The notes below the pieces were generated by a model that made no database searches, was not told the origin of the DNA, and saw nothing but the letters and a program-made list of their open reading frames with translations. 64,000 nt of DNA, from the NCBI GenBank assembly GCA_963920595.1, contig OY986950.1, positions 3,534,001 to 3,598,000 on the forward strand. Direction: 5' to 3'. How positions within the stretch are numbered: position 1 is the stretch's first letter; every line of letters begins with the position of its first letter. A program made the translations under genes and the position numbers. This stretch comes from Eimeria praecox. Its lineage: Eukaryota. Below, piece after piece: positions 39,024 through 44,845 of the stretch.

Positions 39024-42000
39024 CGCAGGCGACTCCGCTTCAAGGGCACTATATAATGCACTCCCCAGAACAATGGTGCGTGCGCGTTTTTTCATAGTCT
39101 ATCGAGCAGTACGGCGTAACACACTAAAGAAAACGATAAAGAGAACGAATAGCGTCCCCACAACTTTTCGCACCAAGGTGCGAACCAAGGTGCGACACTG
39201 AAGGGTGCGGCACAGGGTGCGCCGACACAGGCTAGCTCCCCCCCAGCCCCAAGCAGATCACTTTGCCTATCATGGGTCTTTCCCTGAATTCAGGAGCGAC
39301 CATTACTTATTTTGTAAGGCTGTTCAAACTATTTTGCCTAGGAGGGGGGAAGACCTCGAAAGGGGGCTCAGGTCCGTTGCAACACCATGCACCTCAACGC
39401 GGAGGGGTAACACCCCAATTGGTGTGTTAAAGGAAGCTCTAGAAGCTCCCAAGGCACAGCCTGAATATTGTATCGGGCTGGATATGCTTAAAGCCTTGTT
39501 GATGAGAGCACCCGCAAGTTTGGCAATTGCGCCAAACAGCAGCCCCCGAACTACTTCCTACCATGAGGCTCCAGCAAGGATTGGACCTCTTTGAGACAAC
39601 GCGGCCCAAATTCTCGACTTCCTGCCCCGGAGCGGATGGGTCACAGGCCTTGAACCAAGTAGTGGGCAAGCAAGGCTTGTTAACGCTAGCAGATGGCCTC
39701 CTGGATACTTTCGCCGTTATAGGGCTAACCGAATCTGCCCTTCTGGACACCCTGGCATTAACACATGCCATGGTGTGCGTCTTCGTCTCAATACGAAGAC
39801 ATCAACGCCTCGGCTAGATCGGCCGACGTTGGATTTTTTGCGGTGAATCTGCAACCAGACTCCCCCGCGATCTTTCACTCGCCATGGAGGTTCGCCACGT
39901 GGGCAACGTTCTCCCTTTCGGGAGCGCAGCCCTAACAGTGAAGCAGAGATGTCTTCCTCGGCAGGAGTCTTCTAGGAAGACGAAAAAGTGCGCATGGATC
40001 CAAGAGGGGGTGGTGGCACAGGCGAAACCGTCGGTGCACCAGTTCTCTACACCTCTGGGGCATGGGTTCGCGCACTTCTCTTGATATTTTATCATCTATA
40101 GTCATCTAGAACCCTCAGAAGGCAATTTTCCGCTCTCTTTTGTTGCGCAGAATTTGCCGACTGGGTTCACACGTCAGTGGCGGTGCCTGCGGCCGGTGCA
40201 AATCGGCTGTAAATCCTTCTCCTTTTCTACAATTCTTTTTCGTACATCATTTAAAACATCAAATTTCAAAAGATGGAAGAAGAAGAGGTGAAAAAGGATG
40301 CGGTTTCACCTCTGAACTTAGCTGCGCTCATGCGGCCTCCACAGCCGCAGCGGACCGCTCGGAGGAACAGCAGTTCAGAATTGAAAGAGGCCCCTTTTGG
40401 AATTATAATTGCAAAACCGAGGGCCTCCAGCAGCCGCAAAGAAGGAGAGGACTCAGAAGATTCTCAAGACGAGGAGGAAATGGAGATCTGCGAGCCCGCC
40501 CCAGACATGGATCTGCCGCAACAAGACCCGTCTCCATGCAATGAGGAGATAGAAGTAGAGCAGGTATTAGATACGGCAACTGATAATCAGACAGTCGCAA
40601 GTTCGATTCTCAGCAGGGGAACGGACGATGATGATCTACAACAGCAGTCAGAGGGATTGTCAGAGGTCGACAGCGATACCTCGATCTGTCCTGCGGATAC
40701 AGGACAGCTCGAAGTGTCGAAGCCGTAGCCGTAGCCGTAGAGGCTCAAATGGTGGAGGAGACGGCTCACAGCCCCCAAGCAGCAGTGGAGATCTGCCCTG
40801 ATAATGGGCAGCAGCAGCAAGGGGGGCAATCTACAAGCCCTGCGCGGCTCACCATCAGGGATTTCGTCCGCCAGTTTGTAGAAGAACCCAGAGCCAGAAA
40901 CCTTACACCAGACGGAGAGGGCGAGTCAGAGCAGTTAGCAGATGGCAGCAGCATACAAAAGGACAGCGTAACTCCAGTGTTCTTCTTGAGACAAAGGAGC
41001 AACGCAAACTCAGCAGAAAACACCCCAGAGAGCATCAACAGAACGCCAAAGGGGGTGGCCACACAGCCTGTCCGCTGCCCCAACTGCAAACGCACATTCA
41101 ACTCCGCAAGGGGGCTCTCCCTTCATACACGCAGGGGAGGAAAAGGCAGCTGCGCTCTGAGGAGAAGAGAAATAATCAATCGATGTCAGAACGTGGCAAC
41201 CCCCTTGACGTTGACGTTCCGTCTCAATAAGCGCATCCAGGAGGAAGCAGATGAAGATGTAAACGAATTGGGTGATAGACCTCGTCCAGCAAAAAGAAGA
41301 AGGGGGTCAAAAGCACCTACACAGAGCCCCCCAAAGCCGACTCCTACAGAAATGACAGGGGATCGTGCGAAGGCGGGCAGACAGGCAACACCGGCAGCAA
41401 CAGCAGGGCAGCACAGGCCTACAACTACCAACGGAGAGGCGCTGCTCATCGACAATTGGCCGGAGAGAGCTCAGCAGCAGCGGAACGACCCGATGACGAG
41501 TCGAAGACCACTTCGAATACCTCGTTTAACAGCAGAAGCGGGCGCAAAGCTTACAAGACAACTGATGGAACTTGCGCAAACTACTGCTACCAAGATGGTC
41601 GACAGCACTTGGGAAGAAGTGGAAGCCGCAGTAGAAGGCTTCACTACTCAGCTTTATGATGCGATTTGGTTTGCAGATAAGGACCCCAAGGAAGCAAATC
41701 AACGTGGCAAGAGGAACAAGCCCTCAACGAACACCGAGGACTCAGGAATCCGAAAGACACGCGTGTCCCCAAGGCAGGCTCAAGCACAGGAAAACGTCGA
41801 CAAGGCGTTGCAGGCACTCGGAGCAGAGGAGAGAGCCCAGCAGGGGAAACAATCTGGAGCAACGCTTGATGATAAACTGAAGAAGCGTGCCCTTGAAAGA
41901 AATCTACGAACCGCGCGTCGTCGCCTCATCATGATCCTCAAAGAAGAGTCAGCACAAAATCTCCAAGCACTCTACATGAAAGACAGAAAGAAGTGTGTGG

Positions 42001-44845
42001 AGCAACTACTAGCTGACGAAGATCAACCTAGAAGCCAAGATTGTCCCATCCAACTCAGTGAGCTGGAGGCACACTTTAGAGATCAGCACTCTGAGCAATT
42101 AATTGACTCGACTTCTGATGTTGCTCATGAGTTCTTAGACCCTTTGGCTTCAGCTCCTAGTGGAGCGTGTGCGATTGATCTATACTTCACAGAAGAGGAC
42201 GTGCGTGCTCAGCTGCTAAAGAGCAACCTTAAGTCTGCAGCAGGGCCAGATGGGATAGGCTTTTTTGTGTACAAGAGGTTTGAAGAGGTGCTTGTTCCAG
42301 CCATGACAGCGATATACAACGCGTGCTCTCGGCATCGACGTATTCCAGAGAAGTGGAAGGAAAGCGTGACCGTTTTGATTCCCAAGCAGGGCGATCCTAA
42401 CGATGTGAAGAGTTGGCGACCCATCAATCTACAGGACTGTATCTACAAACTTTATGCAGCACTGTGGGCCAGCAGGATTACGGACTGGGCGTCACAGTCC
42501 GGGGTCGCCTCCAAGTCGCAGAAGGGATTCATGCCAGTGAATGGGTGCCATGAGCACCTGTTTCTTGCCCAAAGCATCCTCAACTCCACGCGCAGAGGCT
42601 CGAAACCGCTGTACATGACGTACTACGACTTGAAAAATGCATTTGGATCCGTTCCCCACGAGCTCATACACGTTGTCTTGAAGGCTCAACGGCTACCGAA
42701 ACACGTTCGTGAGATCATCATGGATCTCTATCAAGGAGCGAGCTTCTGCGTAGTGACGAAGGAGGGCTGCACAGGTCGAATTGAGAACCGACGAGGAGTG
42801 AAGCAAGGGTGTCCTCTCAGCCCGATCCTCTTCAACCTAGCCATTGAGCCTCTCCTGCAGAGATTAGCAGCTTGTGATGCAGGCCTCGAACTGCGTACGA
42901 CAGACGGGAGACCGCCTGTGAAGGTCTCTCACATGGCGTATGCAGACGACCTCAAGACGGTTGCTAGTACTAGAGCAGGAATTTCTACACTTCATCAAGT
43001 GGTGGTGGACTTCCTCCAGTGGACAGGATTAGAGGCCAACCTGTCCAAATGTGCTACTTTGGGATGGAAGCGAGGAGAAAATCGACAACAACCCGATCCG
43101 GTGCAGCTGAACCTCCACAACGAGGTCTTGCCGGTGGTCAAGCTAGGGGAGGCGTACAAGTACCTGGGCGTCAAGGATGCGCTGGAATCGTCAGTGCATC
43201 AAAATCAAATTCTTCGAGTCATGAGCAAGGCGAAGAAGGACATTACCAAGCTCGTGAGGTCAGCACTCCTTTCCTGGCAGAAACTAGATGCGATTCGCAC
43301 TTTTGTGATGTCTCGTCTTGACTATCATCTCAGGCATTGTTAGCCTTATAGACAGCAGCTGAGTGCCTTCGATCGTCATATACCCTCTGCTCTAAAGGCT
43401 ACCTTCAAGCTTTCAAAGAGCACCGTCGTTGAGATGTTTCATCAGCCCACCTCACATGGTGGTCTTGGGTGTACTTCTCTCATCACGATCGCAACTGCAA
43501 CGCAGATAGGTCATGCTGTACAAATGCTCAACAGTTCAGACAGCGTGATTCGAGCGGTTGCAGAAGGCCAGCTATTGGAAGTCATCAAAAAGGCTTTCAT
43601 CTATACACGTGAGAGTGACAAGAGCGACCGGGAAGCGATTCTTGCCTATCTCAACAAGCGCGACTTGGGCTGCCTGAAAAGGAGAGGAAAAAGGGTGGAC
43701 GTTCGAAGCTTATGGTCAGAGCTTCCAGGAAGCTTATCGATGAGCAAGACGCGCATCGAGACTGGAAGCAACGAGAGCTATGTTGTTCAGCGAACAGATG
43801 GCTCCGAATTGGATCAGAAGCATATCATTAAAAGTATCAAACAGCATATGGCGGAGTGCCAACGGGACGTGTGGAAGGAAAAGGTAGATCAAGGGAAGTC
43901 AGTGGCCTATCAGACAGCAGATAGTAATGCTTTCTTGAGAGGTCCCACTCGTCTGAAGCCGGACGAGGTGATCTTCGCCTAAAGAGCACGATCTGCACAA
44001 CTCCCCACACGAGCATATCTGAAGAAGATTAAGGTCTCAAAGGTATCGCGTTGTCGCCACTGTACAGAGGACCCGAAAACCGTAGCGCATGTCCTCAACC
44101 ACTGCCCTCATCATATGAATAGCAAGGTAAAAGACCGACATAACAAGGCGTTGGAGAGGATTGCAACAGCTATCAAGAGCAGCGCGAAGAATAGGGGCAA
44201 GAAGCTCCAAATCGACGCCTGCCCTGAGGACATGGAAACCCTGTTAAGGCCTGATATTATTCTTCGAGATGACAAGCGCAAGGACTTGGCAATAGTAGAT
44301 GTGGCGGTCGTCTTTGAGGACTACAAGAAGAATTCCCTCGGAGCAGCCCGTCTACAAAAAGAAGAGAAATATCAAAGCCTCAAAAAACATTACGAAGCGC
44401 GAGGATATCGGGTAACAGTACAGGCACTGGTATATGGATCCCTTGGCTGCATTGCACTAGAAAACAGGACGGTACTCACGCAGAGACTTGGAATCTCAGA
44501 ACGTTCAGCATGGATTGTGCAACGTGAAATTAGTGCTGACTGTATTCGTCTTAGCCAAAAAATCTGGGGGTTTCATGTAGCCGATAGAGGAGACAGAAAA
44601 CCTCGGAGTGGCAGGCGATCTCGTGGAAATGCTCCAAAATCTGCATGATTTGATATGTTGATGATACAGTATGTGGACACCCTATATGGTCGTATAATGT
44701 GCACTTTCTAAGACGCTTGAAAGTGGTTGGCGCTCACAAAGAAGGGCGTGCCGCAGGAGTCTGGGCTCCCTCAGTGAATACCTAACAAATAATGTTCTGG
44801 GGAAGCAGCTTGCCCCTCCAAAACCCAGTTTTCCCTAAAATTTCC
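39024..44845 (+). mobile_element. Full-length 28S rDNA-specific non-LTR retrotransposon, subfamily A (restriction-like endonuclease type, NeSL/Utopia/R5-like), antisense to the rRNA
   Basis: Flanked on both sides by contiguous 28S sequence. It has a ~1.25 kb leader, one coding region (40273-44648) and a ~200 nt 3' UTR with no poly(A). Confidence 0.95.
40273..44648 (+). pseudogene. Retrotransposon polyprotein (zinc finger-RT-CCHC knuckle-endonuclease), disrupted by one frameshift (before about 40728) and two in-frame stops (TAG 43341, TAA 43980)
   Basis: ORFs at 40749, 43434 and 44115 share one frame. Motifs: CPNC-x12-H-x8-C, GPDGIG, WRPINLQ, QKGF, DLKNAFGSVPH, GVKQGCPLSPILFN, AYADDL, YKYLG, WQKLDAIRTF, GGLG, CRHC-x8-H-x4-C, RHN, RPDII..IVDV, KEEKY. 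Confidence 0.95.

What the first reader, a model, noticed from the sequence alone, without database searches (positions are those of the whole stretch)
39024..44845. 28S rDNA-specific non-LTR retrotransposon in an apicomplexan, inserted antisense at a site next to the R2 site
Seen: a 5.8 kb element with zinc finger, RT, CCHC knuckle and PD..D endonuclease splits the 28S. On the rRNA strand the flanks read ...GGACGTAACTATGACGT|element in reverse|TTAAAGTAGCCAAATGCC. About 2 nt are missing, with no target duplication and no poly(A). Known: R2 inserts in the sense orientation at TTAAGG^TAGCC; antisense rDNA elements such as R5 and R9 use other sites. RT motifs such as WRPINLQ..IYKLYA, GCHEH and WQKLDAIRTF are NeSL/Utopia-like rather than R2-like. 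Apicomplexa are regarded as nearly free of transposons, apart from a few LTR elements. Inference: this is an undescribed lineage that nicks the rRNA sense strand in helix 69, about 8 nt upstream of the R2 nick, and evolved rDNA targeting convergently. It is a potential new site-specific integration tool.
Basis: partly seen in the sequence, partly recalled or inferred. Interest (0 to 1): 0.95.

Follow-up and report, generated by a model that had tools for sequence, protein, structure and literature searches.

The report
Mirror-image rDNA retrotransposon in Eimeria
A jumping gene of the chicken parasite Eimeria sits backwards in the large ribosomal RNA gene, at the mirror-image position of the classic R2 landing site, and it likely descends from a different lineage (Utopia-like) that reached this spot independently.

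Summary
A restriction-like-endonuclease non-LTR retrotransposon (39024-44845, +) splits an Eimeria 28S gene (-), probably E. praecox. An empty-site contig shows exactly 2 nt (GA) lost and no duplication. The lost pair lies on one side of the TTAA palindrome and the R2 nick two bases beyond its other side, so the two sites mirror each other. The RT is not R2 (AU p=1.7e-5). It groups with oomycete Utopia at moderate support. The family is named in five Eimeria species and has intact 1,380-1,536 aa members. Corrections: this copy is dead (two stops, a frameshift) and chimeric, because its first 1,193 nt come from a second lineage in the window; the 2-nt deletion therefore joins two insertions. 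Non-LTR elements were already listed in Eimeria in 2022 (17 'LINE R2', no target given in what I read), and NeSL-clade elements already target 28S backwards 79 nt away in planarians. Site specificity rests on two 3' and two distinct 5' junctions. The share of copies outside rDNA is unmeasured, and Repbase and the Fell 2025 inventory could not be checked. Verdict: real, a new target-site variant of a known kind.

The parts
39024..44845 (+). Copy A: whole insert in 28S (chimeric, dead)
39024..40217 (+). 5' segment shared with lineage B (1 difference from each B copy); low depth in reads; TATATAA at 39050; three hairpins at about 39745-39835
40255..40728 (+). Upstream frame (ATG 40273): N-terminus of the ORF, cut off by a frameshift; 33% identical over 100 aa to the P0002 N-terminus
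40635..44648 (+). Main frame, 1337 codons with stops at codons 903 and 1116
41076..41153 (+). Single CCHC-type zinc finger; no Myb domain follows, two long helical hairpins are predicted instead
42378..43064 (+). Reverse transcriptase core (Pfam RVT_1; YADD at 42939)
44052..44105 (+). C-terminal CCHC zinc knuckle
44247..44372 (+). Restriction-like endonuclease core (PD..D..K), aligns with the R2Tg endonuclease in relative P0002
44649..44845 (+). 3' UTR, 197 nt, no poly(A)
44846..47188 (-). 5' part of 28S, ending in helix 69 at the 3' junction of the element
38522..39023 (-). 3' part of 28S, starting at TTAA; about 600 nt deleted internally
47622..50009 (-). 5.8S and 18S of the same rDNA unit
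30890..34444 (-). Lineage B copy 1: 5' half of the element, same 5' junction, RT 78% identical to A, 3'-truncated
59314..62868 (-). Lineage B copy 2 (duplicate of copy 1 within an 11.2 kb direct repeat)
36255..36842 (+). Decayed 3' end of a further copy, about 80% identical to A, joined to 28S at the same base

Best explanation
This is a dead, chimeric copy of an Eimeria family of restriction-like-endonuclease non-LTR retrotransposons that sits antisense in 28S helix 69, likely inserts there site-specifically by target-primed reverse transcription, and likely descends from the protist branch of the NeSL/Utopia clade. Shown: orientation, junctions, the 2-nt loss against an empty site, domain order, and intact relatives. 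Inferred mechanism: the endonuclease nicks the rRNA-sense strand between Rfam model positions 2271 and 2272. That 3'-OH primes cDNA synthesis from the poly(A)-less 3' UTR. A second cut on the other strand beside TTAA (2274-2277) removes 2272-2273. In the element's own direction the target reads TTAA^GA^ACGTC, against TTAAGG^TAGCC for R2: the same palindrome used from the opposite strand. Being antisense, the element cannot ride the rRNA precursor as R2 does and would need its own promoter or antisense read-through (untested). Upstream recognition would rest on the single zinc finger and a conserved helical region instead of a Myb domain (predicted, untested). Copy A later took the 5' end of lineage B by recombination in a rearranged pile of rDNA remnants (inferred).
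For: Empty site with GA. Both 3' ends in the window (2 of 2) join 28S at the same base although their 3' parts are only 72-87% alike per 100 nt. A different 5' junction in run X7 joins at 39018, 5 nt from the window's: variable 5' and fixed 3' junctions, as reported for Utopia and R2 (PMC4640811). A and B RTs differ mostly at third codon positions (29/26/89 of 257 each), so they are separate lineages under selection that both touch this site. All 15 fetched of 24 members of the P0002 cluster are 1458 aa with YADD and PD..D intact. 18 of 93 short hits are named from five Eimeria species. In a search from a Phytophthora RNase-H-bearing element, Eimeria proteins (336, 326, 309 bits) rank above the best named animal hit (243 bits). 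Trees place Eimeria with the oomycete group and three unnamed proteins at 92/88 and 93/91. Grouping with R2 stand-ins is rejected (p-AU 1.7e-5).
Against: Few independent junctions: two 3' and two 5'. The empty site is one contig in one of four runs. The true 5' junction of the abundant A family was not seen, so the 2-nt deletion is a composite of a B 5' end and an A 3' end; the X7 junction would lose 7 nt. Several named Eimeria relatives lie on contigs of 55-225 kb whose flanks I could not read, so some may be outside rDNA. Tree support for the link to oomycete Utopia is below the tool's 95/80 bar, and no labelled R4, R5/LIN, HERO or CRE sequence was in the trees. The target has A at +1, a change that abolishes R2Bm cleavage (PMC10499050), so the motif match to R2 is partial (3 of 4 defined positions).
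Confidence: 0.78

Rival explanations
1. The family has only a weak preference. One old insertion in 28S was spread by rDNA homogenisation and duplication, and most copies lie elsewhere.
For: The three 5' junctions in the window are duplicates of one event. Named relatives sit on long contigs. Weakly specific Utopia families are known (PMC4640811).
Against: Lineages whose RTs diverged under selection share the site. A different subfamily in run X7 also joins 28S beside TTAA. Full-length intact ORFs persist in many assemblies, which passive spread would not keep.
Confidence: 0.13
2. It is a true R2 that flipped orientation, or came from the animal host, as the 'LINE R2' label of MGEScan would suggest.
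For: R2 is the closest solved structure. The site is 8 nt from R2's. PMC9141347 classed Eimeria non-LTR elements as LINE R2.
Against: No Myb domain. P0002 scores 236 bits against R2Tg while two shorter shark proteins score 393 and 404. The AU test rejects the grouping. The best named non-Eimeria relatives are oomycete.
Confidence: 0.03
3. The window's arrangement is an assembly artefact in a repeat-rich rDNA tangle, so the element-28S junctions or the A/B join are not genomic.
For: The region holds an 11.2 kb direct repeat and a 2.3 kb inverted repeat at over 99% identity. No listed contig spans the whole insert, and none shown crosses 40217/40218 in the A form.
Against: A contig in run X9 runs from 41999 across the 3' junction with 30 letters of 28S, one short of the tool's bar. 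An independent 28S-element 5' joint occurs in X7. The same first stop appears in a Logan protein (P0007) and the second in E. praecox EPH_0073620. In X7 the shared 5' piece has depth 223 but the B-type continuation only 116, leaving room for an A-type join.
Confidence: 0.06

Closest known systems
Utopia (NeSL clade), oomycete branch; Kojima and Jurka 2015, PMC4640811 (parts 1-3 of 5 read)
   Same: Nearest named RT relatives; zinc finger(s)-RT-zinc knuckle-RLE in one ORF; fixed 3' and variable 5' junction; SAR host.
   Different: Target is 28S helix 69 in antisense, not U2 snRNA; no RNase H domain before the RT.
LIN24_SM, LIN26_SM and LIN9_SM (R5/LIN lineage, planarians); PMC4640811 S6 figure (part 1 of 3 and passages)
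   Same: NeSL-clade RLE elements inserted antisense in 28S; LIN24/LIN26 land in the same region.
   Different: The LIN24/LIN26 3' junction maps to window 44925, 79 nt away; those elements end in T-rich tails. Kinship to this family was not tested for lack of labelled sequences.
R2 (R2Bm, R2Tg); PMC10499050 and PMC5035012 (passages)
   Same: RLE-based insertion at 28S helix 69; T(-6), T(-5) and A(-3) of the TTNANNT cleavage motif are present in this element's own orientation.
   Different: Opposite orientation and strand; A instead of T at +1; no Myb domain; different RT clade; reported only in animals (PMC5035012).
Seventeen Eimeria 'LINE R2' hits of Rodriguez and Makalowski 2022, PMC9141347 (passages; supplement parts 4-5 of 5)
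   Same: Very probably the same family, found by MGEScan.
   Different: The passages read give no target, orientation or phylogeny; Table S6 was not found in the held supplement.

Membership tests
RLE-type non-LTR retrotransposon | One ORF with RT, C-terminal CCHC knuckle and PD..D/ExK endonuclease; no LTRs | tested here: met
R2 | N-terminal Myb domain | tested here: not met
   No Pfam Myb in P0001-P0004 or P0006 while the same scan finds it in P0017; models show long helical hairpins
R2 | Sense insertion at the canonical 28S nick | tested here: not met
   Antisense, 8 nt away
R2 | RT groups with R2 | tested here: not met
   p-AU 1.7e-5 against two shark R2 stand-ins plus one allied protein
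R2 | 5' HDV-like ribozyme | tested here: inconclusive
   None by Rfam or by my own descriptor, which had no positive control; the 5' end examined is lineage B's
Utopia | Insertion in U2 snRNA genes | tested here: not met
   All junctions seen are in 28S
Utopia | RT within the Utopia/NeSL lineage | tested here: met
   Reciprocal search and trees. Support for sisterhood with the oomycete branch is moderate. The oomycete proteins are called Utopia from their RNase-H-before-RT layout (PMC4640811); their flanks were not checked
Utopia (oomycete branch) | RNase H upstream of RT | tested here: not met
NeSL (nematode) | Ulp1 protease and spliced-leader target | tested here: not met
   No Peptidase_C48; grouping with two Ulp1-bearing proteins rejected, p-AU 0.005
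R5/LIN | RT groups with R5/LIN | not testable with these tools
   No labelled R5/LIN protein could be fetched
R5/LIN | Same antisense 28S site as LIN24/LIN26 | tested here: not met
   79 nt apart
Target-specific element | Most copies at one site genome-wide | tested here: inconclusive
   2 of 2 3' ends in the window; no genome held; only 20 of 183 loose ends were shown

The most novel reading that the evidence does not exclude
An active, multi-copy Utopia-derived lineage has switched from U2 snRNA to 28S in Eimeria and converged on the TTAA palindrome that R2 uses, from the opposite strand and without a Myb domain. The restriction-like endonuclease itself would then favour TTNA at -6 to -3, and this would be the first site-specific non-LTR lineage characterised in Apicomplexa and a natural strand-swap experiment on R2 targeting.
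Probability: 0.35. Interest if true: 0.8.

Novelty: new variant of a known kind. Interest (0 to 1): 0.62.

Why it matters
Apicomplexan genomes are treated as poor in transposons, with only degraded LTR elements characterised in Eimeria (PMC4199364, passages). A family with intact ORFs, hidden in rDNA and present across chicken Eimeria species, changes that picture. It also bears on how site-specific retrotransposons change targets: a Myb-less relative of U2-targeting elements reaches the R2 palindrome from the other strand, which allows a direct in vitro comparison of what the endonuclease and the N-terminal domains each contribute. It may offer an integrase for Eimeria transgenesis. Use in other eukaryotes is doubtful until tested, because the Eimeria target differs from the consensus at the nick.

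Tried and rejected
No whole genome is held, so there is no genome-wide junction count. Relatives with flanks: none in viral contigs or prokaryote genomes. The metagenome scan kept 80 of 492 loci, all distant (24-41%); none matched the window's rRNA, and Rfam on 20 of the 80 found one tRNA. Target-pattern scans gave one chance hit in an unrelated RNA-virus-like contig and two blanks. The B-derived 5' segment has no credible protein match: Pfam, blastx to fetched proteins, Atlas. No HDV-like or hammerhead core was found. The N-terminal helical region has no fold match at E<=0.001 (pTM 0.41). The bacterial promoter scan is irrelevant to this host and found none. Contig depths were not used as copy numbers; they only show that 39024-40180 is far shallower than the body. 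Host (chicken) contamination rejected: flanks are Eimeria-type rDNA and the proteins match E. praecox models at 98-100%. Fell et al. 2025 is not held; Repbase and Dfam could not be queried. R5 and R9 orientations are recalled only and were not checked.
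Full report
Observation. Rfam places 18S (48214-50009), 5.8S and the 5' part of 28S on the - strand, with 28S resuming below 39023. Between 39024 and 44845 lies a + strand ORF with one CCHC-type finger, an RT, a CCHC knuckle and a PD..D..K endonuclease. 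One contig of run X3 joins 39023 to 44846 with GA between. On the rRNA strand the empty site is therefore ...GACGT-TC-TTAAAGTAGCC, the same length as the Rfam consensus. Two bases are lost, none are duplicated, and the 3' UTR has no poly(A).

Host. The window has CAG and TAAACCC arrays, described for Eimeria in PMC9131526 (passages). E. praecox EPH_0073620 is 98% identical to copy A, and EPH_0061080 is identical over 125 aa to copy B. The host is E. praecox or a very close species.

State of this copy. It has stops at codons 903 and 1116 and a frameshift near 40720-40735 that cuts off an N-terminal frame homologous to P0002. Contigs of all four laid runs read a sense codon at the second stop, so the wider family is not broken there. 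The window also holds a second lineage, B (30890-34444 and 59314-62868, -), whose RT is 78% identical to A with third-position bias (29/26/89 of 257). Yet the first 1,193 nt of A differ from each B copy at one base. In X7 these bins have depth 146-269 against 1,700-9,500 for the body, and X8 and X9 do not cover them. Copy A is thus an A body with a B 5' end, and the 5' junction of the abundant A family was not seen. The 28S unit has also lost about 600 nt downstream (estimated), and the locus is a tangle of direct and inverted rDNA duplications, not a clean array.

Site specificity. Both 3' ends in the window join 28S at the same base: copy A and a decayed piece ending at 36842 whose element part is 72-87% alike per 100 nt while the adjoining 28S is 85-100% alike. 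The three 5' junctions in the window are one event. A different one in X7 joins at 39018 through 39 letters resembling 40070-40104. A contig in X9 crosses the 3' junction with 30 rDNA letters. Against: this is four junction types in all; only 20 of 183 loose ends were displayed; and some named relatives lie on 55-225 kb contigs of unknown flanks.

Family and range. The first search gave 263 proteins among 7,991 candidates; seven are 62-99% identical, then identity falls to 39%. P0002-P0006 are full length (1,380-1,536 aa). All 15 fetched of the 24 P0002-cluster members are 1,458 aa with catalytic motifs and 0-7 differences. Among 93 shorter hits, 18 are named from E. necatrix, E. mitis, E. maxima, E. 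praecox and E. brunetti; none is named from another apicomplexan genus, in a word-limited search.

Phylogeny. From a Phytophthora ramorum protein with RNase H before the RT, the layout PMC4640811 gives for oomycete Utopia, the Eimeria proteins score 309-336 bits, above the best named animal hit at 243. IQ-TREE on 42 rows and 440 columns gives Eimeria 100/100 and Eimeria plus oomycetes plus three unnamed proteins 92/88. On 36 rows, two unnamed Logan proteins (P0333, P0334) are sister to Eimeria at 100/96 and the wider group is 93/91. Rows were chosen by hand from about 330 fetched proteins and 80 loci. AU tests on 26 rows reject grouping with R2 stand-ins (p=1.7e-5) and with Ulp1-bearing NeSL-like proteins (p=0.005). 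The stand-ins are shark proteins scoring 393 and 404 bits to R2Tg, against 236 for P0002. No labelled R4, R5/LIN, HERO or CRE sequence was available. Pfam finds no Myb, RNase H or Ulp1 domain in the Eimeria proteins. The model of finger-to-thumb (pLDDT 82.6) matches R2 best, and the region where R2 has Myb is predicted as two long helical hairpins with no fold match.

Mechanism (inferred). With the element on +, cDNA is the rRNA-sense strand, so the priming nick lies between Rfam positions 2271 and 2272. TTAA is 2274-2277 and the R2 nick is at 2279/2280 on the other strand (motif from PMC10499050). The loss of 2272-2273 implies a second cut beside TTAA. In the element's direction the target is T(-6)TAAGA^A(+1). 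It meets T-6, T-5 and A-3 of the R2Bm motif TTNANNT but not T+1, whose change to A abolishes R2Bm cleavage. R2Bm's second cut two bases upstream of its first is recalled, not checked; PMC5035012 says this cut varies. The Utopia U2 site (3' flank TCTGTTCT) lacks the TTNA pattern, so the mirror may be convergence or coincidence. Transcription must be antisense to rRNA; no ribozyme was found and expression was not tested.

Literature. Eight searches found no paper describing an Eimeria element at this site. PMC9141347 (passages; supplement parts 4-5 of 5 and a term search) reports 17 Eimeria 'LINE R2' hits and three Eimeria entries in Repbase, unnamed in what I read; its Table S6 was not found and may bear on novelty. 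PMC4199364, PMC11912684 and PMC12659853 (passages) discuss LTR elements only. PMC4640811 (parts 1-3 of 5; S6 part 1 of 3 and passages) shows LIN9, LIN24 and LIN26 antisense in 28S, the last two 79 nt from this junction. PMC13580325, PMC13188248 and PMC12203849 (passages) cover R2 in animals; the first says the Fell 2025 inventory holds many NeSL/Utopia elements, and that paper is not held. Unchecked notes of this scan describe antisense NeSL/Utopia-like elements replacing 28-29 bases around the R2 site in other genomes, so the region may be hit repeatedly. That would lower the uniqueness of this case and raise the interest of the pattern.

Verdict. A real element and a likely site-specific Eimeria family. 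It is not an R2 and fails the U2 test for Utopia; it works like R2 and LIN24/LIN26 at a different nick. New variant of a known kind, interest 0.62.

Noticed in passing
window 39010-39023 and 44846-44865 (28S helix 69, - strand): The Eimeria helix 69 region differs from the Rfam eukaryotic consensus at 5 of 30 positions, with paired changes that keep the stem (GGACG/CGTTC). Two of the changes are at +1 and +2 of the inferred nick. Whether this reflects ribosome co-evolution or conflict with the element is untested.
   Followed up: partly
window 39745-39840: Three consecutive hairpins followed by a T run in the B-derived 5' segment (folding z about -5 in a 120-nt window); no credible Rfam match. 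TATATAA lies 26 nt inside the 5' junction (39050).
   Followed up: partly
window 40216-40290 and 33183-33253: The A/B breakpoint falls at an imperfect inverted repeat of about 70 nt that appears flipped between the two lineages.
   Followed up: partly
window 39025-39846: A 273-codon + frame with only two internal TGA stops in the 5' segment; no homolog found.
   Followed up: partly
window 24410-35562 and 52838-64000; 33251-35489 and 37844-40217; 35441-36223 and 37184-37965: An 11.2 kb direct repeat at 99% and nested inverted repeats built from rDNA remnants and element halves, beside one nearly whole rDNA unit.
   Followed up: partly
window 14463-16909 (+) and 16946-18910 (-): Protein-kinase-like exons and a Q/H-repeat-rich ORF, so ordinary genes lie about 12 kb from the rDNA remnants.
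   Followed up: no
proteins P0333, P0334 (Logan, unnamed): Nearest relatives outside Eimeria (43-48% RT identity; 100/96 support); host and target unknown.
   Followed up: partly
run X9 (organism C): Loose-end letters translate to peptides of P0002, so another species carries the intact P0002-type family at high contig depth.
   Followed up: partly
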